Shown: positions 1 through 51,600, numbered from the stretch's first letter. The stretch: 64,000 nt of DNA from Cyanophora paradoxa CCMP329 (GCA_004431415.1 QPMI01000496.1:310001-374000); one strand, 5' to 3'. Notes: generated from the sequence alone by a model not told the origin. Numbers and translations: made by a program.

Positions 1-1
1 T

Positions 2-2308
2 TCCGATTTCGATGTAGTGAGTGGTTGGAATAGCACAGGTGTAGCATTTGTCGGAAGTTGGCAGACCGATTGGAAACCTACAACAGATAACCCAGTAGCA
101 GGATTTTATAGCACTATACAAAATGAAGAGACGAGCAGTGACTACGCGCAAGTTATAGTGCCGACAGGAATGAAAACATGTCACATCCAATATTTATGTT
201 GGACGAATGCGAGATATTTCGATATTCAGGGATACCGCAACAGTCGATGGAATCACATTATGAGAGTGAATACTTACCAGAATGTATCAAACACAGCCGA
301 TACAAATTGGCACGACAGTTTATTATGGACTTCCGTATTTTGTGGGAATTTTACACATATTCGAGTTGTTGCGAGAAAAGGACGAATTCATATCGGATAT
401 TTTGCATGGACGAAAGAGGTAGGAAGAACCGCACCAGCAAATGGTATGATAAGTTGGGATAATGTGTATAGTAAACCATCTTTTTATTCAGCCGCAGACC
501 TTCCAGGAACAGCAACATGGGCAATTGATACATGGTTAAAATCAACAGATAACTATTCACGGTTCTATTTTGCAAATGCAAATGCTACATATATTCGAGG
601 AAGACCCAATGGAGATAATGCGTGCGTTGTATTCAGAAACTCAGCAGATGCTACAATTTTACAATCATATGAAAACGGAAACCTTGCAGTTAACAATACT
701 TTGTCCGCTCCGACTCTAAGTGGAACAATCATTAATGGAGGTTCAATTAATGCTACTACAAACTATAAATTTGGCGACAAAACAATGCCCCGATGTGTAG
801 AATATGACGCATCGGTAGCAGGGAATTCCCCACATGGTTATGCAGGAAGTTGGAGTTTTGAAGGTGGAACGTATTGGGAACCCTACTATAATTACGGTGG
901 GTATGCTTACAATAATGAGAGTGGCGACACTGTTGTTAGCAGCTCATGGGTCGATTACACAATTCCAACTGATATATATACGGGAACAGCCCACTTATTA
1001 TATCTCCCTTGGGTAAATGGTCGTTACTTCGAGATTTGGGGAATCAATAGACAAGGTAATGCGGTTTTCATTGCAAGAGTAAATAGTTATCATCTACATG
1101 AAAGCGCACCAGACGGAAACCACAATGGCATACAAAATATCCCAATCATGCTTGGAAATCGCTTTATTCGCCTTCGTATTATTCCAAAGGTTGGCAGAAT
1201 TCACATTATGGGGATTGGATTTACTCGCAGTTGGACAGGAAGTAGTTATGGTGGACACACAGGTTTTGTTTCTTGGGATAACATTTATAGTAAGCCAAAT
1301 CTACTTACACCGAGTTTAGTCGGAAACATTACAGGTTTCGATACTTGGAGTGGAACAGGTAGTGGCGGTCTATCATTTAGTGGTGGTTGGACAACAGGTT
1401 GGACAGCTTCTGTTTCTAATCCTGTGGATGGATTTTACAGCAATATAGGAGATGAAACGACAAGTGGAGATTGGGCGCAAATTGAAGTTCCCGCTAATAT
1501 GAAATCATGTCACGTTCAATATCTGTGTTGGACAACAAGTAGATATTTCGATATTGGAGGTTATCGAGCGGGTAGATGGTTCCATATTATGCGTGTGAAT
1601 ACTTACCAGGCAATCTCCAATTATGGAACCACAGATTATCATGATGGTTTGGCGTGGGCTTCCTTTGCTTGTGATTATTTCACACACGTAAGATTTGTCG
1701 CAAGAAAAGGACGCTGTTACATTGGAATGGTAGGATGGACAAAAGAAAAAGGGAGAACCTCACCCGCTAATGGTATGATAAGTTGGGATAATGTTTATAG
1801 TAAAGACGCTCGCACCACATGGGCTACCGGAACTTGGATAACATCAGATGAAGGTTATCAGAGAATGTATTTCGGTTCAGCATCAACTACATATATCAGA
1901 GGTCATGCGGCAACAGTAGTAGAGTTTAGAAATGCATCGGATACAAACATAGCATATATCGAACAAAGTGGATACATGTATATTGCGGCATATTTGACAC
2001 AAGGAAGTGACAGACGGTATAAATCGGACATCAAAAGGATAACCGGCGCTCTGAAAGCTGTCGAGCAATTAGAAGGAGTAAGCTTTAAACGAATTGGAAG
2101 CGAAAAAGACGGAACCAAATTAGGTTTAATAGCGCAAGATGTTCAAAAGGTAATACCAGAAGTTGTTAATACAAAATACGATGATGGTTACCTATCTCTC
2201 GAATACACAGGATTGGTTCCAGTTCTCATTGAAGCCGTAAAAGAATTATCCCAGAAATGCAAGAGTCTACAAGATCAAATAGACCAAATTAAGCTCCAAG
2301 GAAGCTAG
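2..2308 (+). CDS. Virion fibre/spike-like protein with three repeated domains and C-terminal peptidase S74 (intramolecular chaperone); 5'-truncated by window
   Basis: Frame is open from nt 2. C-terminus SDRRYKSDIKRI...GLIAQDVQKVIPEVV...LEYTGLVPVLIEAVKEL plus coiled coil is the S74 signature. Three ~150-aa repeats each end SWDN(V/I)YSK. Confidence 0.85.
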   Translation, partial: SDFDVVSGWNSTGVAFVGSWQTDWKPTTDNPVAGFYSTIQNEETSSDYAQVIVPTGMKTCHIQYLCWTNARYFDIQGYRNSRWNHIMRVNTYQNVSNTADTNWHDSLLWTSVFCGNFTHIRVVARKGRIHIGYFAWTKEVGRTAPANGMISWDNVYSKPSFYSAADLPGTATWAIDTWLKSTDNYSRFYFANANATYIRGRPNGDNACVVFRNSADATILQSYENGNLAVNNTLSAPTLSGTIINGGSINATTNYKFGDKTMPRCVEYDASVAGNSPHGYAGSWSFEGGTYWEPYYNYGGYAYNNESGDTVVSSSWVDYTIPTDIYTGTAHLLYLPWVNGRYFEIWGINRQGNAVFIARVNSYHLHESAPDGNHNGIQNIPIMLGNRFIRLRIIPKVGRIHIMGIGFTRSWTGSSYGGHTGFVSWDNIYSKPNLLTPSLVGNITGFDTWSGTGSGGLSFSGGWTTGWTASVSNPVDGFYSNIGDETTSGDWAQIEVPANMKSCHVQYLCWTTSRYFDIGGYRAGRWFHIMRVNTYQAISNYGTTDYHDGLAWASFACDYFTHVRFVARKGRCYIGMVGWTKEKGRTSPANGMISWDNVYSKDARTTWATGTWITSDEGYQRMYFGSASTTYIRGHAATVVEFRNASDTNIAYIEQSGYMYIAAYLTQGSDRRYKSDIKRITGALKAVEQLEGVSFKRIGSEKDGTKLGLIAQDVQKVIPEVVNTKYDDGYLSLEYTGLVPVLIEAVKELSQKCKSLQDQIDQIKLQGS

Positions 2309-2406
2309 CTATAGTCATGAGCATTTGCAAGCGGCACTTTCAGAGCTCGAGTAGTCTCAATAAGATAGATAGATCTGCGTTTTTTTTCTGTGTTTAATTA
2401 GAATAA

Positions 2407-2715
2407 ATGGCGACCTATCCACTTGGTGGATCTCCTTCTACTACTACTGAACCTGTTGCTCTTGCATTCGATACCATAAAACTTGTAGCCGCACTGCAAA
2501 ACGTCGAAAAAACAATCCAGCACACTAACAAACTGTCACCAGTCGTTCATGAATATAAAAACCTCTTGGTTAATGTCCTTGCGCAATCGGCATATGGTGA
2601 CCCTGTTGCTAAATACACTGAGTGTGATAGCAATATCAAAGCAATGACAGCCAACCTTCAAACTCTTTCTGTTGCTTACCAATCCCTAGGATCGAATCTA
2701 ATCAGTTTGGCGTGA
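2407..2715 (+). CDS. Hypothetical viral protein (102 aa, helical)
   Basis: ATG preceded by AT-rich leader (ttaattagaataaATG); co-oriented with neighbours. Confidence 0.6.
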   Translation: MATYPLGGSPSTTTEPVALAFDTIKLVAALQNVEKTIQHTNKLSPVVHEYKNLLVNVLAQSAYGDPVAKYTECDSNIKAMTANLQTLSVAYQSLGSNLISLA

Positions 2716-2815
2716 ACTATGTTGAGCTGTACGAACCGTTTTTTTTTTGCTGACCGGTTTTTGCTGACTGTTTTTTTTCTGTTCTTTCGTTTTAAAGACG
2801 GGGTCTCCCTTCGCC

Positions 2816-3664
2816 ATGGCTGAATTTAATCGCGTGCAGCTGCCCATCTATAGTCTTGGGTCTCCTGCGATCCACATGAGGACGCACGAGGTAAGCGATG
2901 CAGTTATTGGTCTTGAGTCCACTGAGCGCGCTAACTCGACCAATGCTTTCGATCACAGATCGCTGATTCGCTGCAGAGAGATTCGGGCTGATAAAAATGC
3001 GGGAGCTGTGAAAACCACACGCCTGCTCGTGACAAACGCAAATTTCAATCAGCCATTGCTAGGCGGCCCAGACGCATACAGCGTAGATTTACGTACGCTG
3101 AACTATGATCAGAACAACGCTGCTCTTACAGTGCGTTCTGGGGGCGCGGCGATTTCTGGTAGCTGCAGAGTCAGTGGAGTCCACTCCTCTTCGATTTCTG
3201 TCACTGATGTGCCTGACTTTTCATTGGAGAATGCTGAGAATCGTCAACGCGTTCGCATGTACCAGCCATGCTGCGACCTGCCTTACGCACAGGCTCTGAT
3301 TGAAGTAGAGATCACGATTGCAAATGCAAGCCGGCCTGAGGGCACTGATGGTCCGTGGTTGCTTTCAAACAGAGAGATCCCGAAAGCGCTGCAGTCCATG
3401 TGCCAGGATCAAAATAACCGACTCGGCCACGTTTATACGTTCTTTGTGCAGGGACTTGGGCATGCTGGACAGGGTTACGTAGTACGTAATATTAATACGA
3501 GACATCTATTCGATCTATATGCGACTACAATAGGTCGGTACTCGCTGCTCGTCATCGGCTACAGAACCGACGGGGCTGCAAACGCAGCTTCGAGAGGGAT
3601 CAACATTGATCCGACACTCAATAACATGTACGATGAACCGAACCCCCTAGACCCTCTTCCATAG
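2816..3664 (+). CDS. Hypothetical viral protein, paralog A (possible minor virion/fibre-associated protein)
   Basis: 282 aa; N-terminal HxVSDxVxGxxSTE...E(I/L)RADKNxGxxKTTxLLVxNANxN shared with ORF 3716-4540. Confidence 0.75.
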   Translation: MAEFNRVQLPIYSLGSPAIHMRTHEVSDAVIGLESTERANSTNAFDHRSLIRCREIRADKNAGAVKTTRLLVTNANFNQPLLGGPDAYSVDLRTLNYDQNNAALTVRSGGAAISGSCRVSGVHSSSISVTDVPDFSLENAENRQRVRMYQPCCDLPYAQALIEVEITIANASRPEGTDGPWLLSNREIPKALQSMCQDQNNRLGHVYTFFVQGLGHAGQGYVVRNINTRHLFDLYATTIGRYSLLVIGYRTDGAANAASRGINIDPTLNNMYDEPNPLDPLP

Positions 3665-3715
3665 CGCGTTCTCTTTCCGGCATTCTCTTTTTTTTAAACC
3701 AGCCGTCTATAAAAA

Positions 3716-4540
3716 ATGGCTAGCGCAGTTGAAAGGATAGTGACGACGAGCCTCACTCTAGCGGCGCCAGCTGATCACGTTCTGCAGCACGCAGTCTCCG
3801 ATGATGTGCCGGGGGTGCAGTCAACGGAGCAAGCCCCTACCATGAACACCTTCCGTGAAAATCACACTTTGCGCGTTGGCGAGCTCCGTGCAGATAAAAA
3901 CGAGGGCAAAATTAAAACGACCACCCTTCTAGTATCGAATGCAAACTACAATGCTAGCTATGGGGCTGGCGACTCATGGGGCGAACCGATTCATGCATTT
4001 GTTTACGCTGATCGAAACGGAGCTGCTGTTATACGCTCTGGCGGCTGTTATATCGGCGATGGCCTACGAGTTGGGGGGCCGGTCGGTGCTCCTATTTTCC
4101 TGAACGATCAGCCAAACCCTGAGGATTCCAGCACGAGAATTCGAACGTACGTGCCCTCGTCAAACGCTCCTATGCTCATTCATATATCGTTCATGATTGT
4201 GAACGAGCAGACGTCAGACCCTGACAACATCCTCGATCTTGGTGATCACTTCAAGGTCGTTTGCGAAATTCCGCCTGATGTCTTTTTCCTGTGCCGGCGC
4301 GATGATGGGCCGCCGAAGATTACTGTGCAGGTCCTTCCGGTAGATAATTTCGGGCAAGCCTTCCACGCCCCTACAGTCGGGCTGGAGGACTACAAATTCC
4401 TGGTTCGAGCGACGAAGTATGGGACATACAAATTGATTCTCTTCGCTGAGCGCAGCGATGCCATCGCAAACGCACATCGGTTTGCGGAATATGCCGGGAC
4501 CAACCGCTATGCGCCGCCAACGCAGGACTCTGCTCCCTAG
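3716..4540 (+). CDS. Hypothetical viral protein, paralog B (possible minor virion/fibre-associated protein)
   Basis: 274 aa; colinear similarity to 2816-3664 including the C-terminal AT..G.Y.L....R.D..ANA; aaaaaATG context. Confidence 0.75.
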   Translation: MASAVERIVTTSLTLAAPADHVLQHAVSDDVPGVQSTEQAPTMNTFRENHTLRVGELRADKNEGKIKTTTLLVSNANYNASYGAGDSWGEPIHAFVYADRNGAAVIRSGGCYIGDGLRVGGPVGAPIFLNDQPNPEDSSTRIRTYVPSSNAPMLIHISFMIVNEQTSDPDNILDLGDHFKVVCEIPPDVFFLCRRDDGPPKITVQVLPVDNFGQAFHAPTVGLEDYKFLVRATKYGTYKLILFAERSDAIANAHRFAEYAGTNRYAPPTQDSAP

Positions 4541-4576
4541 CGAGATAAATATTATGTGTGTTTAATCAGATAACCA

Positions 4577-4789
4577 ATGTGCTCCTGCCTTGTGACACTG
4601 GCTAAGCTTCTCCTTCATGGGGGCCACGGTCATTTTCATAGCCGCTGCGATGCCGACCTTGATATCTCGGTCAGGTGCCCCATAACGTTGACCGAGGATC
4701 GGTCTCAGCCTTTAGAAAGGCCTTTTCAAACTCCACTAACCGAGGGCGTTTATTCTTCTCCACTCGCAGAAAGCACTTCAATTCTTTAG
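4577..4789 (+). CDS. Small hypothetical viral protein (Cys-containing hydrophobic N-terminus)
   Basis: 70 aa MCSCLVTLAKLLLH...; AT-rich leader; fills the gap between co-oriented ORFs. Confidence 0.4.
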   Translation: MCSCLVTLAKLLLHGGHGHFHSRCDADLDISVRCPITLTEDRSQPLERPFQTPLTEGVYSSPLAESTSIL

Positions 4790-4896
4790 AGGAGGGCGCA
4801 GCAAAGGAGACGGTCGAAGGGTGTCCCCTTCATCGCGACAAAAACGCGATTTTTTTTGTCGTGTTGATAATACTGTGACAAGGATCCAATTCAATA

Positions 4897-5241
4897 ATGC
4901 CAGGCAGCGGAGCAGGCAGCGGAGCCGAAGTAGACCCTCCCATGCGCAAGCGAGGCAGGAAGCGAGTTGTAGTTACGCCTGAAATTTTGGAGGCTCGACG
5001 AGCCAAGAGGGCAGAGTATCGGCGTCGGAAGTACGCCGAAGATCCTGATTTCCGACAGAAGCGTATCGCTGAAAGCACCAAGTACCAGTCAAATCACAGG
5101 GAAGAACACAACGAAGCAAACAGACGCTACCGGGGTCGCATCATGAATAAGATCGCTGTGCTTGAGGCCGCCCTGGCATATGTGTTAGCTAGCGGTCAGG
5201 GCGACTCTTTGGCTGTCGCCTCAGCGTCCTTGTGTTGCTAG
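4897..5241 (+). CDS. Basic helical putative DNA-binding protein
   Basis: RKRGRKR followed by an Arg/Lys-rich helix (EARRAKRAEYRRRKY...RQKRIAES); aataATG context. Confidence 0.6.
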   Translation: MPGSGAGSGAEVDPPMRKRGRKRVVVTPEILEARRAKRAEYRRRKYAEDPDFRQKRIAESTKYQSNHREEHNEANRRYRGRIMNKIAVLEAALAYVLASGQGDSLAVASASLCC

Positions 5242-6388
5242 GTGCTGTGTAAGAAGTGCTTGAGTTTTCGAATGACGAATACCACCTCTGCGTAGCTCCA
5301 CCTGGATTCAGCTTGTCTGTTCCTGCCGTCAGCAACTGCTTTTGTAGGCGGAGTAGCTGCTTACTTTTTTCGATCTGGGACTTGTCCAGGTTTTCCTGCA
5401 TTAGCTTCAGCTCTTGCCTACGTTTTTTCAGAGCTCTCTCTGCCGCTGAACCTGGCTGACGCACTTCGGTGTCCGACGGTATTTTCAGAAGGTACTGGTA
5501 GGTGACGGGTTTGTCGTAGCCTGAGAGGGTAAATTGCAGAAGCGGTCCAAATCCCCCTACAGATTTGATCGTGTGGACCTCTTTCGAGTATGTCGGCTTT
5601 GTTGACTTGTCAAAAGTTCTGGCAGCAAGCTTCACGCGCACCCTATCCCCAACTTTGAATTCCGCCTCTTTAAAGTAGTGCTGCTGCTCGTAAGTCTCTC
5701 TCTGATAATCATTCCTTGCTATTACCTGTGCAGGGTGCTTTGTGGCGTCGTCGGGAGTTGCTCCGATCGATCGATGCTCCGTGCTATTGTAGTTCCTGAG
5801 AAACGCAGGAAGTTTGTCAATGTACCTGTCCGTATCATTAGCTTCCATGTATCGTGCTATGATGCGCTTTAAAGTGCCGTTGAAGCGCTCTATCTTACCG
5901 TTTGCCTGGGGCCTGTGCGATCCAATTAAGTTGTGCTTGATTCCCCTTTCGGCAAGCATGTTTGTAGTTGATGCTTTGAACTCCTGATCGGTCTGAATGA
6001 TTTTCACAGAGGGCAGACTGTCCACCAGCTCGCGAAGCGTTGATAGCAGCGTTCCTTCTGATTTAGTTTTCATCGCGATACTGTACGCCTTCCTAGTGAC
6101 AACGTCGATTGCGTTCATGATAAAGTGCACGCCACGATTCGACCTGGCATATGGAGTGACATCAATCAGGTCGACCTCGTAGTACTGCTCAGGATGATCA
6201 TACACGACGCTCGTCGATGGCAACTCTTTTGGTGGCTTCACAAACCGCTGGGCAGTCGAGAGCTTTGCCAGTACTTCTCTCACTCTGGACACTGGCAGGT
6301 CGAGCTTCTTGGCGATTCGAGCTGCCGACTGAAATCCTGTTTCTGGGTCATAATAAGCATCAGCAATTGATTTCGCTTTGCCACTCAT
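5189..6388 (-). CDS. Polinton-type retroviral-like (RVE, DDE) integrase
   Basis: YYDP..GF.S N-terminus; EVDLID, IDVVTRKAY, IQTDQEF, NGKIERFNGTLK, YNSTEHRSIGATP, FKVGDRVRV...FDK....YSKE motifs; no C-terminal chromodomain seen. Confidence 0.93.
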   Translation of the reverse strand: MSGKAKSIADAYYDPETGFQSAARIAKKLDLPVSRVREVLAKLSTAQRFVKPPKELPSTSVVYDHPEQYYEVDLIDVTPYARSNRGVHFIMNAIDVVTRKAYSIAMKTKSEGTLLSTLRELVDSLPSVKIIQTDQEFKASTTNMLAERGIKHNLIGSHRPQANGKIERFNGTLKRIIARYMEANDTDRYIDKLPAFLRNYNSTEHRSIGATPDDATKHPAQVIARNDYQRETYEQQHYFKEAEFKVGDRVRVKLAARTFDKSTKPTYSKEVHTIKSVGGFGPLLQFTLSGYDKPVTYQYLLKIPSDTEVRQPGSAAERALKKRRQELKLMQENLDKSQIEKSKQLLRLQKQLLTAGTDKLNPGGATQRWYSSFENSSTSYTAPSNTRTLRRQPKSRPDR

Positions 6389-9300
6389 GGGGAACTGTGC
6401 TATAGTAGGCGTCGGGAATTATCTTCCGTTTTGTGTACTCGGTCTTGTTGAGGATGCGCGTGAATGGTGTCTGAATAATTGTGCTGAACCCGATACCTGC
6501 CGCTCGCTGCTTTTTATTAGGGCAGAAGACTCGTGAGAGCTTCGATTCGACCTTGCATTCAGGCTGATACCGGCTCTCGAGCATCTGTCTGAAATCATTC
6601 AGGGTGGTTTCTGCCGAGTGCCAATTTGTCTCGATCCAGCTCCTCGGAATGCCTTTGGCCCGCACATGTAGGCCGTGCTCGCCACTGATTTGTGCAAAGT
6701 AACAGGTACAAACTTTTGGCGCGATGAAGTACGCCTCCACAATTTTACCCTTGATGTCGTAGTCAAGTTTGCCGAGCTCCATTGCGCAGATCCGCTTGTT
6801 CTGCTCCTCTTCCATAAGCCCTTCCAGAGAGTAGGGCTATTTCATGCAGTCTGCCAACACCTCTGCGTGTTTTCTGTGCACAATCATCGAGTCTGTGTCG
6901 GTGTACCAGGGCATTGCATCTATGTTCCAGTACGACCCCATTCTAGTAAGGAAAGTGTCCATGATCTCCCGACTGTAGGACAAGATGAAAGCACCAATAA
7001 AACAAGGCTTCTTGACTTGTTCATCGCGCTCCTCTTCAGGTACTTCGTATGTTACAAACATGCGAGTGTCAGATTCGATTTCAATATCTGTAATCGTCGA
7101 GCTATTTTGGATCGATTTAAAGCACCTGTAGTTGCTTACCAGCTCTCGAGTTTCTATGATGGGGCGCTGGGCAAACTTGCCATAGAGGCCGTTCAGAAGA
7201 ATTTTTGCTGTGGCATACTTGGCCGTGCCCTTTGTAGAGCGCGCTTTCATGCCGTAGACATTTTCAACGTAGTCTTTGAAGAGGCGCTCTTTGCCGTCGA
7301 ACACATACACCTCGTGCACATCGGCGATCTGCACCCCTTTGCAGAGCGCTCTGTAGATGTCAACGGATGTGTACATCTCACGCACAACTGGCTTGAGGTT
7401 GGACCAGCCAAGATTCGATTCGTGCCGTGGTAGTGGAGATAAAGTGAGGTTCTGAGGAATCGTCGCACTAATAGTAGCAATGAATAAATGGGCTTTCTTC
7501 TTACCTGTGATCGTGTATCGATTCAAGTCGTCTCTGAACCGCTGCAAATCGTTGGGGTCGGTCATGTGCCTGAAGCTGCCCGTGGGAAAGTATTTAGAGT
7601 ACATCGCCGTTGGATACAACGACACGACATCTAGGTCGACTAAGTAATCATCAGGCCCAGTCGATTTAAACTTGCGCTTAAAAGGGAGGCAGCGACCGCC
7701 ATAGATCGCCTTGCGGAATGTCTGGTCTTCCTTGTATGTTGGCAGCTTTAATTTGGTGTTGGACGGCATCAGCTGCCTGAAAATCTGAAACGCCATAGAC
7801 GACGCTGTTGGGGTTTGAGTTGAGTTTACGTTGATTTTGAACAAGTCGAAGCTCGTTTTTGCGTAGATCATGTACAGCTCTGTCAGCGACCGCACGTCTT
7901 TCCGAAGATACTCGCTCCATTCTTCTCTATGCCTGTGCACATCAGCCCACGACGTGATCTTTCGATGGTCGAACTCACCCTTCATTGTGCTGCAATTGAA
8001 ATCCTTAGCTGCCTGCTTGAGGGAACCCTGAATGTGCAAACACGGATCGAAACTTGCAAGCTGCCCACCTGCAGAAGTTACCCACTTCATGGTTTTCAAT
8101 TTTCCGTTTGATCGCGTCACAACGACATTGCTGTCAGGTCGATTTGCGATCAGCCACCTATAAAGAAACACAAGGTCGAACCCGCTGCCGTTGTAAAACA
8201 CGATTGTAGTCTTGTCTTTCCACTCATCAAGCCACAGCATGAATTTGTTCAGAGTGTCCTCTCCTTCGAAGGCTCGACTTCCCGAGATCTTCCCATCTGC
8301 AATTATTTCAGCTGCCACTGCGTATGGAACGTGAGTGATGTGGTCGGGGGCAAATGTCTCAAAGTCCGCGCAGATGACCGAGTGCAGAGCGGTAAAGTCG
8401 GCCTCCGGCTCGCAGGCAATAATCTCACGACCGCGTGGACCCTTCATAATTGGCTTACTGCGTACGGCTTTAGCGCACTGCTTTGTGTGGTCCTTCTTCG
8501 CGCTGTACTTACAACGACACTTGGAGCAAAACCTGCAATCTATCTTGTGCTCTGCTAGGTTACTCTGGAGCTCTCCGCAGTTCGTGCAGAGCTCCATCTT
8601 CAGTGTTGCTGCCTTCTTAATCAGGTAGCAGTGAGTATTCACAATGCACAAGTGGGCACGTTGTGCGTAGCCATTTTTGGTCTCGAACAGAGGCTTGAAA
8701 GTTGGTTTTGTCCACTCGTATAGGCTCGCATCAACGCCATAGTACCTGCTCAATTTATCGATGGTTGGCACGTCGACAGCAATAAGGCCCTTCGGTAGCT
8801 TTAATGTCTTCCGTTTGGCACAGTAATCTAGTCTTGCGAGCGTCGCATGGATGGTCTCCAGTTTCGGTGGACACCTGCACATGCCATATCGCTTAGTATA
8901 CTCGAAACATTCAAGCACGCAATTATCTTCAGCGGACATAGGACAGTAAATTTTGTATTGTGTGTGCTCTTTGCCGCCGAAAGGCATCTCACGGAATGGA
9001 ACGTTTCCGAGGGCTCCTGCGTGGTTCTCGGCAATCAGCACCTCAATCTGAACGACCGGCCAGACATTGGCACTATCGTAAGGCTGTTGAGCGAACTGCC
9101 ACTCTTCAAGCTTTTCGTCCAGCTTCGAGAGTATATCTTCCAGCGTATCGTCTGCAATTGTTGCCAACTGCGTGCGGTACATATGCCCATTATCAAACCG
9201 AACGCGAATCATCACGCTAGCACCTAGTTTCTCTTGCACTCGCAGTTCATTTAGAAAACTAATTGTTATCTCACGCACACGCTCAGTGGACGTTGTAGGC

Positions 9301-9710
9301 GCGATGTCGAGCACATCTTTTGTGAAGAGTAGGTTCGGATACTCGTGGTGCTGCACATACCGCCTTTCCGGAATGGAGTCATCAAATAATTCTGAAAAAT
9401 TACTCGCCTCAAGTACGTCATCAAGAGCCTGCGCAGCCGCCGCCCGTGCTATCTGCTCTCGCTCAAAGTGTGCTTGGACGTGTGATTGGTGCAAACGCCT
9501 CGCAGGCTGCGTGGTGTTGCCCAATCGAAGCAGGGTTGCCAATCGAGCTCGCAGTGAGGTCGTCCGGGTTCTTGCCTGCGGTTCTGTTAATCGATTGAGC
9601 GTATTTCTATAGCTCCCATGAATGAACCCACGGGCGTGAAGATCTTGAGCGAGATCGCGGATTTCAGCTCGAAGGGCGTTTCTTGCCATCCTGAGAGTCG
9701 CTTGCATCAA
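6360..9710 (-). CDS. Protein-primed family B DNA polymerase (pPolB), interrupted by one in-frame TAG at 6837-6839
   Basis: Exo motifs ADFETF, FYNGSGFD, YLRKDV; Pol motifs DVVSLYPTAM, KILLNGLYGKFAQ, YTDTDS. ORF 6360-6815 (ELGKL..FIAPK..RAKGIP, thumb) is in the same frame 7 codons after the stop. Confidence 0.93.
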
Positions 9711-9795
9711 TAAGGATCAGAAAAATATTTCGAATTTAAACGCACCAAATCTCCGATTGTCATATATACTAAGCGCTGGCCTTAAGTCGAAGTGG

Positions 9796-9885
9796 GAAGG
9801 GAGACCCTTCAACCCGGCTACGAAGGGAGACCCTTCAACCCCCGCTCTGCGGCGAAGGGAGACCCTTCAACCCCCGCTCTGCGGC
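9796..9885. repeat. Three copies of palindromic GAAGGGAGACCCTTCAACC
   Basis: Copies at ~9796, 9822, 9854; GAAGGG/CCCTTC arms around a 3-nt loop; degenerate 4th copy at ~10298. Confidence 0.9.
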
Positions 9886-9888
9886 TTG

Positions 9889-10132
9889 GTTTTTGCCGAC
9901 CGTTTTTGCTGACCGTTTTTGCTGACGTCGACCTGGTTTTTGCTGACCGTTTTTGCTGACGTCGACCTGGTTTTTGCTGACGTCGACCTTGTTTTTGCTG
10001 ACCGTTTTTGCTGACGTCGACCTGGTTTTTGCTGACGTCGACCTTGTTTTTGCTGACCGTTTTTGCTGACGTCGACCTGGTTTTTGCTGACGTCGACCTG
10101 GTTTTTGCTGACGTTGACCTTGTTTTTGCTGA
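9889..10132. repeat. Subterminal tandem array of 12- and 21-bp units (core GTTTTTGCTGAC, +/- GTCGACCT(G/T))
   Basis: Directly visible mixed array of CGTTTTTGCTGA and CGTCGACCT(G/T)GTTTTTGCTGA. Confidence 0.95.
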
Positions 10133-10415
10133 GCCCGCGGGGGAACGGTCGCCCGCATAAGGACGGAAAAAATCGCGTTTTTTTTTGGGACCCGCCAGGA
10201 GTCGATCCAGTTACAAATGAAAACTGAGCGCAGCATCCTACCACCTCGGCTAATGGGGCGGAAAAAGTAGAACTATGGGGAGCCCCTCCGCAACCGCGAA
10301 AGGAGACCCTTATACCACACTCGACAGACCGCATGGGTCTTCTATGGTTTTTCTGAGTATCATCACACGCCTTTTTCTTGTTTCTTCTAAGATTGTAATT
10401 TGCTTCGTAGAACAA

Positions 10416-10588
10416 GGCCTCGGACCCAACGGAGCAACAACGATTTACACGCGAAATTGAATTACTGTAGTAGCAAATTGCACGACTGTGCAGCGAGCGC
10501 AGCGAGCTGCACTGCTGTGTGTCACATTTGCTATGCAGCGCTTCCGCTTCGTGGAAACCGCAGTTGTTGCTCCGTTGGGTCCGAGGCC
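10416..10588. mobile_element. MITE-like element, perfect 26-bp terminal inverted repeats
   Basis: GGCCTCGGACCCAACGGAGCAACAAC (10416-10441) and its reverse complement (10563-10588); no clear TSD. Confidence 0.7.
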
Positions 10589-12950
10589 ACACAACACTGG
10601 CGCCATGCCACCCTTGCTCGAATCGCCAGCGTCAGCAATGTAGAGTATGTTTTCTGCGGCAAAAGCTCACTAACCTATGATTGTGATCATGAATTCGAAT
10701 TCGAGCTCTATATACGAACCCGGAGTCGTTGCGAGAGCCACTGGGGCAAAGTATCTCGCCGTCGTTGCATTTCCGACGGCCAAACCTTCGAATACGGGCT
10801 TATGTCGCTTCCAAGGCTTTGAAACGCATATGGGAATACAATATCATAGTATAGCTTTAACTAGTAAACGAAAGCACCCACCGCGTTCTATGAGGCTGCC
10901 GTGAATAAAGGTCGAAGTGCAATCGCTGGGCCGCCGCAGTCAATGGACAGCCAAAACGTGCACGAGTGCGCATGCGTGTATATATGCATGCTGACGTTGC
11001 TCGCGATCGTGTGTATATATTTACGAACCTATCAACACGGAAGATGCCTCCACAGCCGGTTGCATTGGATGGATACGAGAAGTCGCCGCAACCAATGTAC
11101 AAATATCCTGCCGATTGCGTCGGCGATTAGCGGCCGGGGTCACAGATACCAGATGCAGTTTGCAATATTATTATACGTATATCGCATGATGGCATCATTC
11201 AGGCAGACTGCGCATGATATCATAGTATGCACGCGTACGCGTACGTGCATGCGCACCGTCGTATGACGAATAATGAATGGCTGCAACCAGATGCGTGCAG
11301 AGCAAAGTTAGCTATGAAGATGACATGTACAGCGCGTGCGCAGCTGCAGCTCCGTCCAGATTACGGATTGAAGGAAGCAAAGCTCACCTGTTATACGTTG
11401 AAAGCTTGCCAAGCTGCCTTGACCTGTGCAGAGATGCGATTAGAACCAAGAATGCAAATATCCTCCTTTGCAATTGCACTCCTAAGTATATATACACACA
11501 CGTGCGCATGCACATTACCTGCAGCGGCAGGAACATCGAGCCTTTGGCCAATGCAGAACCGAGCCGCTCCCACGGCCAGATCGTCGGGATTTCCCGGCAA
11601 ACCCCCAAGATCTGGAGCAGCCGCGGAGACCTCGCCTGCGCATGCCACGGCAAGCGGGCGTCATTTGCGGCAATTGCATGCGAGACTCTGAGAGGTTTAG
11701 CTGATCGAGGCGCCGGCGCCGGCCGCGGGCCGGCATGCGCAGACAATCGCAATTGCAAACCACAAATCTGACCGAGGATTGCAAGTACGAAGATCGCCAC
11801 ATACACGTGCACGTGCACGAATTCGAAGGCGGGGCGTCGCCGACATCCCCGCGGCGGCAGTCGGACGCGTACGTATACGTCCATTCGATGAAGACACCCA
11901 CTGGGCCAGAGCGATCGCGAACTCCGGCAGATTTGCAAGATCTAGATACCTGATCGATCACGAAGAGGACTCCGGGACCAGACAGCTGCAGGCTGCAGGC
12001 TGCCAGGCTGCAGCGCGAGTTCCTAGCTCTAGCTAGTAGCTTTCTACGTACTAACTACGCGCTGTACGGTATACACGTGCACGCAATGTTAATGTTGAAG
12101 TCCGACGGTCCGACGGTCATCGATCACTGTCAACAGTGTCAAGCGCTAGCCATATGCTGCGATGATATGCATCCTACATGAATCATAAACATGATGGCTA
12201 CATCATGGGCCGATGATTCATGGCATGTACTACGGTACAGTCCGACGGTCAAGCCATCCGGTCATAGTACGTAGTACCGTCATACTCGTGTCACGAGTCA
12301 CGACTCACGAGTCGTGTGCAGGCTATACTGTAGATTCAGTGTAGAACTAGCGCTAGCCCTGCGATGAGAATCACGCCTTCGAATCCCGTCCATTCCAAGT
12401 AGGGCACTGGCCGGCGGGTCTAGAACTTAAAGCTTGCACCGGGGCTGGCCCAAAATTCCGAAAGCTTGCACCGGGGCTGGCCCTAGCGGCTTGGCGGCTC
12501 CAAAATTTCGGCTGGCTTGCCAGCGGCTTGCCAGTTACTATGGTACCAATAGCCAGCGCGGCTTGGTCTGGCTTGGTGCAGCTCGCGCTAACTTCACGGT
12601 CTTCACCTATGCTTCGTTCGCCGGCTCGATTGCGAGCCCCGGGCTTGCTGACTTGGCTGACAAGCCGGGGGCTGACTTCTGTACACGCCCCCGCAGTGCT
12701 GGACTCCGGGAGTAGACTAGAGGCAGTGGCCGGTAATTCAATAAACAAAATAGTTAATTTCGGAGGTTTCGAAAATCAAGCTTCGGAATTTCGGTTTCGA
12801 AATTCGTTGTTCCAATTGCCTCTTCGCTCTTCACAGCTCGCCGTCGACGTCACCGTGGTCTCTTTTGTTTTTTTTTGAAAACCGTCGCCTGGATGCAGGT
12901 TCACCGTTCAAATTCGATTAACACATTAGATAAGGGCGCACTAGCGCAGT

Positions 12951-13796: not shown

Positions 13797-14027
13797 CTGT
13801 AGGATGGCTATTTTAGCCGTACTTTTAAATTGCCGTATATTGCCGAGACGCCAAATTCGGCAATTTAGAGCCGCGGCAATTCTCAGGGGGTAGGGCTAAA
13901 CGGCCGCTTTTGTATGGCACCATAGGAGAAATCCAGAGTTTCGGCAATTTATCGCCACGGCAATTTCGGTTTTGGCCGAATTCGGCAATTTAACTAGACG
14001 GCAATTTAAGCCATCCGGATCCTACAG
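13797..14027. mobile_element. Tc1/mariner-type MITE (TA TSD)
   Basis: TA|CTGTAGGAT...ATCCTACAG|TA, internal CGGCAATTT repeats. Confidence 0.7.
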
Positions 14028-14098
14028 TAGTGGCAGCACTGGCAGGCACTGGCAGGCAGTGGCAGCCTGGCAGCCTGTTGCAGGCACTGGCAGCTAGG

Positions 14099-14458
14099 CA
14101 CCGATTAATCGGGGTCCTGGGGCGCAGGTGAGGAGGAGGGAGGAGGCGGAGTGGGGAGGAGGAGGCGTGGCGGAGCGGCGGCAAGGGAGGGCGGCGGACT
14201 GCGAGACATTTCACTTCCAGGGCTCATGAGGGATGGAGGAGTTGATCAAGGGGTGGGCGCGTGGGTCTGGTTACGGCTATCACCGAAAACCATGGCTCCC
14301 CCACTCAGGCGAACCTCCCATATTGAGCGACCCATGGCCGGCACCTAGCTAGCACCCTCGGCTAGATAGATGACCCGTCGGAAGGGCACGTCACGTAGAA
14401 CATTGATACATGTGCCGTGGTGTATCAATGCGACGTCCACTTTTGCAAAAAAAAAAAA
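14099..14458 (+). mobile_element. Short or 5'-truncated non-LTR retro-insertion with poly(A) tail and 18-bp TSD
   Basis: CAGGCACTGGCAGCTAGG at 14081-14098 and 14459-14476; A12 tail; 3' hairpin CATTGATACA...TGTATCAATG. Confidence 0.85.
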
Positions 14459-40000: not shown

Positions 40001-41559
40001 TACTGCTAGCTATAGCCTATAGGCTAATACTTCCTGCTCCGCGGCCGTTAGAATTTCGGCTGAAGCTAAAGAGGCTGATATCGATGCGATATGGATCGGA
40101 TCTGCTGTGATGAAATTAAATATGAATAAATAAATAAGCTTCTTATAATTAGCTGACTTTCTTGATGCCATGATGTCGCGCAGCCCTTCGAATTCCGGCT
40201 TCATGGCGGCCGATGTCGACGATCATCGGATGGCGTGCGCTGTTCCCCCATGGCCAGCTGCAGGCAGCGCTAGCTATAGCTCTGCCAGAGTGCGTGACTC
40301 ATATGCATGATCAGTGAAATCTGCAGCTGGCTGTACATTTTCCGAAGTTCGATCCGTCTGCAGCGCTAGCTGATCATGAGAGGGAGCCTCGGAGCACTGC
40401 GGCAGTCGGCACTGCCGATCCCGTCGATATCCCACGGATCATCGATATAGCGGATCAAGGAAGCGATCGCAAGTGCGAGAAAATTTTAAACAAGCCTCGG
40501 CGACGTCGGCGCCGGCGGGCCCGGCCCGTCAAATTCGAAGATGCAGTCGCGCGCGCGGATCATCCGCGCGGGGCCGGCGGGGGGCATGATCATGAGGGCG
40601 ATATCGCGATATCGGGGGGGGGGGGGGGGGGGGGGGGGACGGAAGGCGAGGCCCGGCGCGCTGCTAGCGCTGCTGCTTGAACTGCGCCCAGAATCCCCAG
40701 ATCTAGAGGCGCCCCGTCGGACTCGGAGGCCCGGGCCGCCCGGCCCGCGGCCGTCCCCGCCGATATATATATCGATATCGATGACCGTCGCGATCGGACA
40801 CGTGCACGTGCACTGCCAGTGTGACAGCTTCTTGCAATTGAGGTCCCGACTCGAGCTCCCGAGCTCGAGTCCCGATCGATTCCTTCGATCCGGCACGTCG
40901 CCGGCACGCGGCCGTCGACGTCCTCCGACGGTCCTTGTCACCAAATTGGCCAACTGAGGTTCTCTCAGTCCCATACAACGTTAACACCCTTCTGGGAGGC
41001 TGTGTCCAGGCTGTGGGCTTTTCCTATCTAAAGCTTGACGTGGGTCACCGGGTCTACCTAAAAAAGACCTTCGAATTCTGTCCTCTTATACTAGTATAAA
41101 TTACTAAGCTAAGTTGCCTTCAGAAAAACAACAAAATCTGAACAAAAGCGCCCGCGCTAACGAGGCTAACGGCGTCCGTACCGTACTAGTACTACTAGTA
41201 GCCTACTAGCTAGGCTAGCTGCTAGCGGCGCCTAGCGCTGCAGCCTGCACTGCGGCAGTCTGCAGACTCCCGAGTCCCGAGTCCGAGGCTCAGCGGCTCT
41301 GAGCTCGCAGGCTCGAGAGGCGCGGCGGGCCCAGGCGGCACTGGCATCACAGTGGCATGCATCACAGTGGCAAACAGCCAGGGTAGCGTCCGTAGCGATG
41401 TCTACCAAGGTATGCCGACCACTCTCTCCAAACCGCCCAGCCCCAGTACCTGCGCCACCCGGGAGTCCCTGGGTGATGTAACTGCAAGCAGTTACCGCGT
41501 GGGCCTCGCGTCCCGCACTCCCTGGACCGCCCTCTCGATCGTGAAATCTTTCCCCCGCA

Positions 41560-44239
41560 TGACCTCAACCGGCCCCAAGACCGGCTCCCCGCGTTCGCCT
41601 CCCCCCGACTTGACGCCCCCCGAAAATACTAGACCCACAGCTTCCATAGAGTCGCGGCAAGCCGCGAAAGCTGGGTCGGCCGCCGTGCACACCTCCAGAA
41701 CGCGCGCCGAGGCAGCACGCCCGCCAAAGTCTGACACGCCTCCCGGTCCGCAGAAGTCAGAGAAGGCCAAAGACCCGCGCCGGCATACCGAAGACGCGGA
41801 TGGCGCCCCTAGCCGGGCTCAGAAGTCCCCGGCTCTGGCCGAGTCCCTCCAGAACCTGAACCTCGCCTCGGCCCCGAAGATCGTCCAGAACCTCCTCGCC
41901 GAAATCCGGTCGAAGTTCCCCACTCCAGACGGCTCGCCGGCGGACCTGGACCAGATTCACTCGGCCCTATGCACCTCCCGTCTGGTGACTGCCTCTCAAT
42001 CCTGCGGCACGCAACCTGACCGAGTTCGCGACTCACACGGGCGCCCGCAGTACTGCCAGCAACTGCCGGCAGGAGCGCTAAAGCCGATCCCGCTCGATGA
42101 CCCGTACTGGGATTCGCCGGAGAACGCCCTGCGCTCAATCGTAGCGAACTGGATCTTCCACGCGGAAGGCACCATCCGGCGGCATGAAGAATATGAAAAC
42201 GCCCGGCTCGCTGAGGCGGCGGCCCGCAACCAGCAGCACGCGCAACAACAGCAGCAGCAGCAGCTGCAGCAGCAGCTGCAGCAGCAGCAGCAGCAGCAGC
42301 AACAGCTCAATCAGAACGCGGACCCGGCCGCCGAGGAACGCCGCCGCGCCCTCGAAGCCGCCGCCCTCGCCGCCGAAAACGATCTGACAGATGAGGAGCT
42401 CGGTGCCGCCCGGCGCCTCCAGTTCCGCGCCGAAATCGATGCGGAACAGCTACTTCAGATCGCCGATTCCCCGGTGGACGCCAACTCGCCGGAAGGTCGA
42501 GCGGAAGCTGAAAAGCTTCTCAATGCCGCGCTCGGAGACCTCGCCCTGCTGCGAGAGGCGCCCGCTGACTACCGCTCGATCGGCCGCACCGGCGAACGGC
42601 TCATGCTCCGCGTCGGCTTCACGTCGCGCGAGGCTCAGCGGGCGTTCTGCAGTGCCAAGCTCCCATGCGTGCGCCTGGGCTGCGCGCCACCCGGGACGGC
42701 CGCTGATTCGCCCCGCCAGTTTCTCTTGGACGCGGCCACGGAGACATACCTCGCTCGTCGGCCTTTCTACAAAGAAGAGCGTATGGACGACGAAGACGTC
42801 AAAAACCGAACCTTCCAGGCCCTTGACATACCCCTAGACGCGCGCACGAACGAAATCATAGACGGGCTCGAAGAGCTCATGAAAGAGGCGAGCCTCGCCT
42901 GCCATCGCGTCGGCGGACGGCTGATCCTCGCCCCGCCGCGCCAGATCCTGGGAGACAGCGCCGCGGAAGTCTACGACGAACACCCAACGCTGCTCGGAGA
43001 CCTCAAGATCGACTACGTGCAGAAGAAACAACGCATCGCGGATAACAACGCCAAACGTGTACGCAGTTGCCTGCCGCGGCTAGCGCGCTGGGCCCCTCCC
43101 GCGCCCCACTTCACGAGCCCGGCAGGCCGTGTTCACAGTCCCGCCGGCCCCCAAGCTCATTGCGGCCCTCCCGCGCCTCCACTCTTGGGTAAAGCTGCGG
43201 ACCCTTGTCCGCATCCGACCGGGCCGCGATCTCCCCCCGGAGATGACGCCAGCGAACGCGCTGACGCTAGCGGGGGTGCCGCCCGAAGCCAAGATCAGCG
43301 GACTTGCCAAGCTCCTGGCCTCGCTCGAAGTGGACCGTGTGGTCTGGTACAGCAAGGCGATCCCCGAGACCGGGGCAGGCCGCACAGTCGGGACCGCGGA
43401 CGTGCAGCGCTGGCAGGAGTCCCACTCCGCCTTCGACCCCGACCCCCTGCTCGCCTGGACGGCCTTCAGCCGCGTGCCGTTTGTCCACCTCGTCTTCCGG
43501 ACGGCCGACGCGCTTGCCGCAACCAAGCAGATCTATCTCGGCCCGGCGGCGGACCCGATGCACGACGACGAGGACGACATCCCGCCCAGCGAGGCGTACC
43601 CCGCCCGCCACGGCCGCAAGTTCGCGGGTCGCTATATAGTCGTCCCCTTCGAGGTTCCCCCTCGCCCGCCCGGCCCCGCCCTCCCCTGGCGCGCCTAAGG
43701 GTCTGCAGCGCTACATGTGCCCTGACTGCGCGGCCCCGGAGGCCCTGGACACGCTCGCTGGCCTTCTCAAGGAAGGGCGGGCGCTGGATGACGTGTCCCA
43801 TTCGCCGCCGGAGCGGGACGGCGACCGCAAGTGCAAGCCCCGCCACGACGAACGCCGCAAGGCCATCGCGGATGCCCGCGAAGCCGACCGCCGCCAGCGC
43901 GAAGAGCAGCGCCGGCAGGCCCAGTCCGGCGCCACCAAGCAGCGCCTGGAGGAGAGGCAGCGCCGAGCGGAGGCGCAGCGGGAGCAGGCGGCCGAGGCGG
44001 CGGCGACCTCTCAGGAGGTTCTCGCCGCGATGGGGGAGGCTCCGGCGCTCGGCCCAACACCTACATGGAGGCGGCCGCCAGGGGCGCGGCGCGAGCCGCG
44101 GGACGAGCCGCGGGCTGGGCCGCGGAGCCGGCCGGGGAGCGGGGCGCGGCGCCAGTCTGGGCGGCGGTGGGGCGAACCGGGGCGGGGCGCAGACGGGCCC
44201 ACCCCATGCCGGGCGCCCGCAGTCGACGGGCCCGTCTAA
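41560..44239 (+). pseudogene. Retrotransposon ORF1 (poly-Q, coiled coil), broken by frameshifts
   Basis: Successive frames 41352-, 43129-, 43715- read as one protein; CAG tract ~42234-42306; CPDC motif near 43715. Confidence 0.55.
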
Positions 44240-51200: not shown

Positions 51201-51600
51201 GCGGTCGCGCACCGCGCGGAGACTGCTCGCGAACTGAACCGACTTCTGCTCTGCGCATACAGAGAGGCCCACGGCCTCACAGCGCCGCCAGCAGGAGCCC
51301 TCCTTGCTCCCGACCTGGTCCCAATCTTCCTCCGCGTCGCGGACGACGACACCGAGGCGCGCAGCTACGATGGTAGGCCGTACGCGTATCCGCGCCTCTG
51401 GGTGCTCCAGGGCCTTGCTCCGCAGAGTCTAGAAAGCGCCCTCACACGCTGCCTGAACCTTGCACCCCGGTACGCGGCACGCGCAGCTAAACGCGTTCGG
51501 CAAACGCTTCTGGAACGGGCCGACGCCTCTGGTCACGTCGCTGCGAAATCAACGCGGAGTGGGAACGCGACTGCCGCGTCTCCCAGGCCTCAAAGAAGCG
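45277..51600 (+). pseudogene. Retrotransposon ORF2: AP-endonuclease, reverse transcriptase, RNase H, C-terminal Cys/His motif; multiple frameshifts
   Basis: APE: VTFNVRG, ALQE, ILLGDWN, RIDAV, SDHFPV. RT: RPITL, QDIRRAYDSV, GLPQGGIESP, AYADDT, FKLLGV. RNase H: AWTDGS, INKAELQA, HVDN, KVKAH, NDVAD. ETFPHVFLCP near 51165. Confidence 0.9.

What the first reader, a model, noticed from the sequence alone, without database searches (positions are those of the whole stretch)
2..2308. Fibre built from a triplicated ~150-aa aromatic-rich domain, with distinct AT-rich composition
Seen: three units with the pattern ...IxYLxW...RYFxIxG...IxRVN(T/S)Y....HxG/HD...F..(I/L/V)R....GR..I...GW/F...SWDN(V/I)YSK. 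Units 1 and 3 are followed by a shared W.....S.(D/E)...R.YF....TYIRG...FRN..D linker. The gene is visibly more AT-rich than pPolB/integrase. Inference: tandem beta-sandwich (carbohydrate-binding-like) receptor modules on a fibre acquired or swapped horizontally; unit number could vary and set host range.
Basis: partly seen in the sequence, partly recalled or inferred. Interest (0 to 1): 0.7.

Follow-up and report, generated by a model that had tools for sequence, protein, structure and literature searches.

The report
Protist virus fibre, repeated lectin-like modules
A virus-like element in a microbe's genome carries a gene with three copies of an unnamed protein module, predicted to fold like a sugar-binding domain, ending in a chaperone domain of the self-cleaving kind; it likely makes the virus's attachment fibre, a known design with a newly recognised part.

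Summary
Observation confirmed; interpretation half right. Unit 2 models as one confident domain (pLDDT 89) with a CBM6/CBM35-like beta-sandwich (Z 12), and a unit-2 trimer is supported (0.36 vs best control 0.13). The unit has no Pfam, NCBIfam or PHROG family, yet 201 cluster representatives carry it: giant-virus, phage-like and bacterial fibre or adhesin proteins, one copy in 143 of 150. Units 1 and 3 are a duplicate pair; unit 2 is a distant paralogue. The AT-richness is real but not fibre-specific: the step lies at about 2796, past the next ORF. Fibre plus that ORF form a many-variant family in host runs, while the pPolB-integrase block is one unique contig bracketed by repeats. So the replication block is the likelier newcomer. 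S74 fibres with lectin arrays are already described in Polinton-like viruses. Sugar binding, capsid genes and copy-number variation are not shown.

The parts
2..2308 (+). Fibre-type ORF, open at the 5' end (768 aa visible, P0001)
2..478 (+). Unit 1 (aa 1-159), member of the unnamed beta-sandwich family; 56% identical to unit 3 with its linker
479..793 (+). Linker 1 (aa 160-264): W..S.D..R.YF..TYIRG..FRN motif, then a Gly/Asn/Thr-rich stretch; likely beta-shaft
   Evidence: shaft role inferred from PHROG tail-fibre matches to the paralogous linker 2
794..1297 (+). Unit 2 (aa 265-432): predicted CBM6/CBM35-like jelly-roll, predicted homotrimer
1328..1807 (+). Unit 3 (aa 443-602), directly after unit 2 with a 10-aa spacer
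1808..2005 (+). Linker 2 (aa 603-668), paralogue of linker 1, in front of the chaperone; lies inside matches to phage tail-fibre families
2006..2305 (+). Peptidase S74 intramolecular chaperone (aa 669-722) with Ser669/Lys674 and a C-terminal helix
   Evidence: spacing as T5 pb1 Ser1264/Lys1269
2407..2715 (+). 102-aa ORF of no known family; same AT-rich composition; linked to the fibre end in other copies through a shorter spacer
2741..2815 (.). Composition step (best change point 2796, range 2748-2838; GC 0.40 to 0.50) with GTTTTTGCTGAC and GGGTCTCCCTTCGCC motifs that recur at the far end of the block
2816..4540 (+). Two paralogous ORFs (282 and 274 aa, 32% identical) of no known family, in the 50%-GC block
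5189..6388 (-). rve-type (DDE) integrase
   Evidence: rve_3, E 1e-8, above cut-off
6837..9707 (-). Protein-primed-type DNA polymerase B
   Evidence: DNA_pol_B_2, E 2e-61
9797..10133 (.). Right-hand repeats: three inverted copies of the GGGTCTCCCTT motif and an array of 12 GTTTTTGCTGAC copies

Best explanation
The ORF is the 3' end of a gene with three copies of one ~165-aa module and a terminal S74 chaperone domain, and it likely encodes the trimeric attachment fibre of an endogenous Polinton-like virus of a protist. How it likely works: three chains are brought into register by the C-terminal S74 domain, which would then cut itself off at Ser669 with Lys674 as base (domain and residues shown; cleavage inferred from T5 pb1 and K1F). 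Beta-shaft linkers alternate with the modules; each module is predicted to fold as a CBM6/CBM35-like jelly-roll (model shown for unit 2) and predicted to trimerise through part of its conserved motifs (RYF, F.KRVN, H.G), leaving other conserved residues (W284, W292, W337, R399, H401 in unit 2) free for a ligand, most likely a surface glycan (inferred from fold). Two kinds of module (1/3 type and 2 type) would give avidity and possibly two specificities. The AT-rich composition is likely the native signature of a multi-copy element family to which the fibre and the 102-aa ORF belong; the 50%-GC pPolB-integrase block next to it is likely a swapped-in or tandem-inserted replication module.
For: S74: Pfam E 7e-16, 58.7 bits vs cut-off 22; PDB 6f45 long tail fibre distal subunit E 8.5e-4; 29 PHROG families, best 6e-28; Ser/Lys at i, i+5 as in T5. 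Domain: AF2 with 74 sequences pLDDT 89.1, pTM 0.86, five models 87.5-89.1; VIA-align top rows Z 12.0-11.1, rmsd 2.2-3.2 A, 115-127 aligned, carbohydrate-active enzymes and CBM35; Foldseek CBM6/CBM29 E 3e-4 to 1e-3, TMq about 0.5. Trimer of unit 2: score 0.36, best of 3 controls 0.13; runs 0.36/0.04/0.65, at least 25% shared contacts, pLDDT at least 68; mark reached by 21 of 30 solved pairs and 0 of 23 single chains, calibration made for two copies, not three. Family context: 201 representatives; of the 150 listed, 35 end in an S74-like domain, 30 have collagen runs, 28 VGIGT repeats, 76 at least one of these, and the unit is at the very C-terminus in only 3; Pfam S74 confirmed in 13 of 30 scanned; in P0085 the unit follows a stretch matching phage small distal tail-fibre subunits. 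Mosaic: change point 2796; 362 of the 393 contigs of run X2 laid on 1-11500 fall on 1-2700, whereas one contig with 0 differences spans 2600-9848 in X2 and X20 and 2600-9362 in X1, so the junction is not an assembly chimera; a fibre-to-ORF102 joint with a shorter spacer has depth 132/760/588 against 12.6/90.4/22.3 for the unique contig. One variant over unit 2: 13 synonymous, 12 non-synonymous codons, no stop, rough pN/pS 0.25, none in the 19 most conserved columns. Precedent: PMC12220804 section 13; bioRxiv 10.64898/2026.10.13.758929 sections 11, 13.
Against: No capsid, penton or packaging ATPase gene is in the window, and no genome is held, so the Polinton-like-virus label of the AT-rich side is inferred. 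The same fold is used for protein binding: MAM Z 10.7 and Eph ligand-binding domains Z 10.5 are within about 1.5 of the top rows. Unit 3 has Tyr where the family has His (82%) at the H401 position. One of three trimer runs scored 0.04. Only unit 2 was modelled with an alignment; the single-sequence model of the whole ORF failed (pLDDT 32). Contig depths are summed and, by the tool's own warning, are not copy numbers; the ratios differ between runs. The closest relatives of the unit (33-43% identity) come from giant-virus-like proteins with N-terminal membrane anchors, not from recognised Polinton-like viruses.
Confidence: 0.65

Rival explanations
1. The protein is a fibre, but the modules are structural beads or bind a protein, or bind the glycosylated surface of a helper giant virus, rather than a host glycan.
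For: MAM and Eph ligand-binding domains score Z 10-10.7; 5 of the 19 most conserved columns lie in the predicted trimer interface; the module is internal in nearly all relatives (median 259 residues follow it), and several carriers have another head domain (PAN, TLDc, fibrinogen-like); the nearest relatives are giant-virus-like.
Against: Three Trp, an Arg and a His conserved in 82-94% of 177 units are not named in the interface (unnamed means uncertain); the best structural matches are carbohydrate-binding modules; carriers also hold laminin G and F5/8 type C domains.
Confidence: 0.2
2. One reading: the fibre gene itself was recently acquired by an otherwise 50%-GC element, and unit number varies between copies.
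For: Fibre is significantly AT-richer than 6 of the 7 other ORFs compared; the module is mobile across giant-virus, phage-like and bacterial proteins; joints 474-to-1322 (run X19) and 1804-to-1322 (run X13) could be unit skipping or gain. A fibre-plus-ORF102 cassette sweeping through different elements would also give many close variants.
Against: The AT-rich block includes ORF102 and both spacers and ends at about 2796; that block is the many-variant side and the pPolB side the unique side; no close donor exists among 174 other units (best identity 33-43%, long branches); both joints can be explained by a unit-2 end resembling the unit-1/3 end (side only 21 letters in X19).
Confidence: 0.1
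3. The AT-rich block is a piece of an endogenous giant virus (or a host-adopted adhesin), and the pPolB-integrase block is a capsid-less mobile element that landed beside it.
For: Closest relatives are in giant-virus contexts (L009 is a GVMAG contig, L006 has RNase III and an SNF2 helicase); no capsid gene is visible; the pPolB block is bracketed by its own repeats.
Against: Hundreds of divergent contigs with a conserved fibre-ORF102 link fit a small multi-copy element; S74 fibres are described as ubiquitous in Polinton-like viruses; the ORF has no intron and differs sharply from the ~70% GC host genes.
Confidence: 0.05

Closest known systems
Polinton-like-virus fibres with C-terminal Peptidase_S74 (PF13884) and arrays of laminin G_3, collagen or discoidin domains (PMC12220804, section 13, part 1 of 2 read)
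   Same: Long modular protein, repeated lectin-type beta-sandwich domains, single terminal S74 chaperone, in an integrated element of a protist.
   Different: The repeated domain here is none of the Pfam domains named there (no Pfam match); it is CBM6/CBM35-like by fold only. That paper's Supplementary Fig. S6 and Table S6 were not seen.
Phage tail fibres with intramolecular chaperone: T5 pb1 (PMC4690869, passages read), PDB 6f45 long tail fibre distal subunit
   Same: Ser at i and Lys at i+5 at the start of the chaperone, C-terminal helix, preceding shaft-like segment.
   Different: Eukaryotic host, pPolB/integrase neighbours, CBM-like beads in the shaft; cleavage not tested.
CBM6/CBM35 carbohydrate-binding modules (e.g. 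PDB 3wnk, 5x7o, 2wz8, 2cdo)
   Same: Jelly-roll topology, Z 10-12, 115-127 residues aligned.
   Different: 6-15% identity, no profile match; extra C-terminal segment (model 152-171) outside the CBM core; predicted to trimerise; found in fibres rather than enzymes.
Gezel-14T (PgVV) Ltf fibre-like virion protein (bioRxiv 10.1101/2022.07.28.501842, passages read)
   Same: Repeat-built, phage-fibre-like protein of a Polinton-like virus, found in particles there.
   Different: Repeats there are T4 gp36-like; the term S74 does not occur in that text; no sequence comparison made.
Repeat-bracketed pPolB + DDE replication modules ('transpoviron-like'; bioRxiv 10.64898/2026.10.13.758929, abstract and sections 11, 13 read) and the recombinant EMALE02 (PMC8547959, passages read)
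   Same: pPolB paired with a DDE integrase, set off from the rest of the element by repeats and, here, by a composition step.
   Different: Here the left half of the element is unseen, so replacement, second replicase and tandem integration cannot be told apart; the block also holds two unknown paralogous ORFs.

Membership tests
Peptidase S74 intramolecular-chaperone fibres | PF13884 match above the curated cut-off, at the C-terminus | tested here: met
   58.7 bits vs 22, aa 669-722 of 768
Peptidase S74 intramolecular-chaperone fibres | Catalytic Ser with Lys five residues on | tested here: met
   S669/K674 in SDRRYK; T5 Ser1264/Lys1269
Peptidase S74 intramolecular-chaperone fibres | Trimerisation-dependent self-cleavage | not testable with these tools
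   needs expression; only a unit-2 trimer was modelled
CBM6/CBM35 carbohydrate-binding modules | Galactose-binding-domain-like beta-sandwich fold | tested here: met
   unit 2 model, Z 11-12; units 1 and 3 by homology
CBM6/CBM35 carbohydrate-binding modules | Sequence match to the family profile | tested here: not met
   0 of 11 units match a CBM profile in Pfam at E up to 10; no CBM in PDB profile searches. It works like a CBM by fold but is not filed as CBM6/35.
CBM6/CBM35 carbohydrate-binding modules | Binds carbohydrate; structural calcium site (feature recalled, not from a call) | not testable with these tools
Polinton / Polinton-like virus | pPolB and rve-type integrase | tested here: met
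   but these lie in the 50%-GC block, which may have another origin than the fibre
Polinton / Polinton-like virus | Double-jelly-roll capsid, penton, packaging ATPase | tested here: inconclusive
   none among 9 ORFs scanned; element runs off the window start, no genome held
Polinton / Polinton-like virus | Terminal inverted repeats | tested here: inconclusive
   left end unseen; only short internal inverted motifs
Polinton / Polinton-like virus | Integrated in a eukaryotic genome with a GC contrast | tested here: met
   GC 0.40-0.52 over 1-14 kb against 0.6-0.8 in host DNA with ADK, IF3 and LINE-type genes
Mobile pPolB-DDE replication module | Repeats other than the element's TIRs bracket the module | tested here: inconclusive
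   GCTGAC arrays at 2741-2775 and 9887-10112 (direct) and a 15/15 inverted motif at 2801-2815 / 9851-9865; the inverted motif may be a promoter, since a degenerate copy also precedes the ORF at 4897
Mobile pPolB-DDE replication module | Target-site duplication or an empty site in other copies | not tested
   contigs too short; not examined

The most novel reading that the evidence does not exclude
The unit defines an undescribed family of trimer-forming lectin modules traded among phage tail fibres, giant-virus surface proteins, bacterial adhesins and Polinton-like viruses; in this host a multi-copy virus family shuffles two module types by recombination at their conserved SWDNxYSK ends and, with a giant-virus-type module, targets the same glycan as its helper giant virus, while its replication module is exchanged independently.
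Probability: 0.2. Interest if true: 0.7.

Novelty: new variant of a known kind. Interest (0 to 1): 0.42.

Why it matters
What Polinton-like viruses and giant viruses bind on protist cells is largely unknown. This gives a compact, confidently modelled ~165-aa module, absent from Pfam, NCBIfam and PHROGs, with at least 201 sequence clusters and named candidate binding residues, that can be expressed and put on a glycan array. The locus also shows, in one genome, a sharp and assembly-verified seam between a many-variant structural side and a unique replication side, a direct example of the module exchange recently proposed for these viruses. The overall architecture is already known, which limits the surprise.

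Tried and rejected
No genome held, so other copies could not be read whole. Single-sequence AF2 of the whole ORF failed (pLDDT 32) and was not used for fold search. Word-based searches with single sequences found almost nothing: viral contigs with unit 3, A1, P0005, pPolB, ORF102 and the 282/274 pair gave 0 loci; GenBank phages 0 with units 2-3; homologue searches gave 1 protein each, so no full-length version of this fibre was found. ESM Atlas: no usable hit for unit 3, only rows under 0.8 for a relative. Weak PDB profile hit to NECAP1 (E 0.011-0.019, 40 residues) rejected: the modelled fold is a jelly-roll matched by CBMs. Weak Pfam/NCBIfam/PHROG rows for single units (pth, NQR C, DUF6710; 1 of 11 members each) treated as chance. 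No RNA holder listed; two runs guessed to be RNA gave 0 and 1 contigs: no evidence either way on expression. The careful tree did not finish; the quick tree's base is unresolved, so no donor is named. Earlier findings: three look-ups, nothing. Paper searches for the module: all five of giant virus/Polinton-like/carbohydrate-binding module/fiber/AlphaFold gave 0 papers; one search gave one paper on fibre-head folds (listing only, not read); one search gave nothing usable on CBM binding sites. These searches cannot match an unnamed domain well, and supplements were not read. The 51 representatives beyond the best 150 were not inspected.

Full report
1. Observation. Frame +2 is open from base 2 to 2308 with no upstream stop, so the gene is cut by the window start and three units is a minimum. 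Local alignment scores between units (651, 190, 167) are far above 300 shuffles each (maxima 62, 60, 67). Units 1 and 3 with their linkers are 56% identical over 216 aa; unit 2 is 32-34% identical to both. Unit limits by profile: aa 1-159, 265-432, 443-602. GC is 0.404 against 0.495 (pPolB) and 0.499 (integrase); four-fold-site GC 0.25 against 0.53 and 0.49 (p 1e-14, 5e-8). The next ORF (2407-2715) is not different from the fibre (0.28, p 0.74).

2. It is a chaperone-ended fibre. Pfam finds Peptidase_S74 at aa 669-722 (E 7e-16), PHROGs 29 families, mostly tail fibres, over the C-terminal 100-260 residues, and the PDB a long tail fibre distal subunit (6f45, E 8.5e-4). Ser669 and Lys674 have the spacing of the catalytic Ser1264 and Lys1269 of T5 pb1 (PMC4690869, passages). 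Neighbours are an rve integrase and a pPolB; host DNA from about 14 kb on is 60-80% GC with intron-broken ADK and IF3 genes and LINE-type elements. No capsid gene is among the 9 ORFs scanned and no genome is held. I read the host as a protist from these features; I did not identify it.

3. The unit is an unnamed, widespread domain. One homologue led to nine, and a profile of 11 units scored 201 of 1.84 billion cluster representatives at E up to 0.001. Of the 150 listed, 143 have one unit, 6 have two and one 5217-aa protein with a signal-peptide-like start has 11 (P0125, given two stretches, has one at my threshold). 35 of 150 end in an S74-like domain by my own profile, 30 have collagen runs, 28 VGIGT repeats, 76 at least one; Pfam confirms S74 in 13 of 30 scanned and shows laminin G, F5/8 type C, PAN and phage-fibre domains as partners. 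Contexts: 5 of 183 metagenome and 4 of 222 viral pattern hits were confirmed (L004 = L009, L002 and L007 nearly the same); L009 is a giant-virus MAG contig and L006 carries RNase III and an SNF2 helicase. P0085 places the unit behind a stretch matching phage small distal tail-fibre subunits. P0077 is a secreted-looking protein on a GC-rich bacterial MAG contig. A profile built without the window units finds all three (E 3e-27, 3e-35, 2e-26 at library size); their best identities to any of the other 174 units are 33-43%. No Pfam, NCBIfam or PHROG family covers the unit. In a quick ML tree of 177 units, units 1 and 3 form a clade (SH-aLRT 100, stem 1.06), unit 2 is a long separate branch, and the base is open: one duplication plus an older paralogue, donor unknown.

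4. Fold and assembly. With 74 sequences AF2 gives unit 2 pLDDT 89.1, pTM 0.86, eleven strands. VIA-align against 48,161 chains ranks CBM35/CBM6-type domains first (Z 12.0, 12.0, 11.9; rmsd 2.2-2.9 A; CBM35 2wz8 Z 11.1), with MAM (10.7) and Eph ligand-binding domains (10.5) close behind; Foldseek agrees (CBM6, CBM29, Cry domain; E 3e-4 and up) and finds phage tail and receptor-binding proteins in BFVD at similar weak levels. Three copies of unit 2 in ESMFold2 scored 0.36 against a best control of 0.13 (runs 0.36, 0.04, 0.65; at least 25% shared contacts; pLDDT at least 68; mark met by 21 of 30 solved pairs and 0 of 23 single chains; calibration was for two copies; my alignment was not used). 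This supports but does not show a trimer. Five of 19 columns conserved at 80% or more lie in the named interface (model 79, 93, 96, 98, 113); W21, W29, W74, R136, H138 (W284, W292, W337, R399, H401) are not named, which leaves them as candidate core or ligand residues. That CBM6/35 bind sugars at a loop site with aromatic and polar residues is recalled, not from a call.

5. The composition claim turns round. The best single GC change point in 1-9800 is 2796 (2748-2838), 0.403 to 0.504, after ORF102. It coincides with GTTTTTGCTGAC (12 more copies at 9902-10112) and GGGTCTCCCTTCGCC (inverted at 9851-9865); the latter may be a promoter. Twenty DNA-type runs of one organism hold 69-77% of the words of 1-6000. 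Laid on 1-11500, a single contig with 0 differences covers 2600-9848 in X2 and X20 (2600-9362 in X1) at depth 90.4, 22.3, 12.6, bridging the step; bins over 1-2688 sum to 588-3933, 359-2054, 117-369. In X2, 362 of 393 laid contigs fall on 1-2700, 243 of them under 95% alike. Other copies join the fibre end to ORF102 by a shorter spacer (joint 2292 to 2402, depth 760, 588, 132). These depths are not copy numbers, but they show many variants on the AT-rich side and one on the pPolB side. For one variant contig over unit 2, 29 of its 40 differences were listed and usable (one more, inside a compensated indel pair, was dropped): 13 synonymous and 12 non-synonymous codons, no stop, rough pN/pS 0.25, consistent with purifying selection. 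Two joints (474 to 1322 in X19, side 21; 1804 to 1322 in X13) may be unit loss or gain, or only variant unit-2 ends: inconclusive.

6. Mechanism. Shown: domain order, S74 with its Ser/Lys, family membership of all three units, composition step, variant-rich versus unique sides. Predicted: jelly-roll fold and trimer of unit 2. Inferred: trimeric fibre, chaperone-led folding and self-cleavage, beta-shaft linkers, glycan binding with avidity and perhaps two specificities, attachment to a capsid encoded upstream, and exchange of the replication block. Confidence 0.65 for the whole; rivals are non-glycan or structural modules (0.2), fibre-only transfer (0.1) and a giant-virus fragment (0.05).

7. 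Comparison with what is known. PMC12220804 (passages and section 13, part 1 of 2) reports S74 as ubiquitous in Polinton-like viruses, at the end of modular fibres with arrays of up to seven laminin G domains, and already proposes avidity and host specificity; its supplements were not seen and may show this domain unnamed. Gezel-14T Ltf is a virion component (bioRxiv 10.1101/2022.07.28.501842, passages). Module exchange and repeat-bracketed pPolB-DDE blocks are described in bioRxiv 10.64898/2026.10.13.758929 (abstract, sections 11 and 13; no mention of fibre or S74) and for EMALE02 (PMC8547959, passages); GC contrast of such insertions in PMC10120064 (passages). I found no paper naming this module, with the limits given above.

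8. Verdict. A new variant of a known kind: the known S74-ended, lectin-array fibre, built from a domain family that has no name yet, beside a probable module seam. Interest 0.42; boldest reading 0.2 likely, 0.7 if true.

Noticed in passing
window 2741-2815 and 9797-10133: The 50%-GC block is bracketed by a direct GTTTTTGCTGAC array (1 exact copy left, 12 right) and an inverted 15-base motif; expected chance counts 0.002 and 0.0002 per 10.4 kb. Fits a separately mobile pPolB-integrase module, or promoter motifs.
   Followed up: partly
window 2816-3664 and 3716-4540: Two paralogous ORFs (32% identity, E 4e-32) with no Pfam, PHROG, PDB or viral-contig match; a GGxxIxG/VxG stretch suggests short fibre-like proteins (impression only). 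Parts of them have extra depth in the runs.
   Followed up: partly
window 2407-2715: 102-aa ORF of no known family, always next to the fibre end in the joints seen and the deepest-covered part of the region; candidate conserved virion or assembly protein.
   Followed up: partly
window 4812-4858 and 10162-10187: A GAAGGG-nnn-CCCTTC hairpin-like motif and an AAAAACGCGATTTTTT motif occur upstream of both the 114-aa ORF (+) and pPolB (-): likely shared promoter elements.
   Followed up: no
window 6385-6812 (run X2 record 13, X20 record 20): A 16.6-kb single-depth contig matches the integrase/pPolB region only in patches at about 80%: a second, divergent element of the same kind in the host.
   Followed up: no
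window 10416-10588; 13850-14100: A perfect 26-nt inverted repeat with a 121-nt spacer, and CGGCAATT and CAGGCACTGG repeat clusters near the point where GC rises to host level.
   Followed up: no
window 41226-51900 and 55191-56675: A long non-LTR retrotransposon (endonuclease, reverse transcriptase, RNase H-like end by eye) broken into several frames, and a second RT fragment.
   Followed up: partly
P0014 (5217 aa); L010 3832-8073: Secreted-looking proteins with 11 and 1 copies of the module, cysteine-rich spacers and shufflon-N/fibrinogen-like parts; the L010 record title says Enterobacteriaceae but the GC-rich, cysteine-repeat context looks myxobacteria-like (recalled, untested).
   Followed up: partly
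L002 1019-10747: Two tandem giant fibre-like ORFs (1426 and 1670 aa) with VGIGT repeats; the first ends in a C1q domain, the second carries the module shortly before its end.
   Followed up: no
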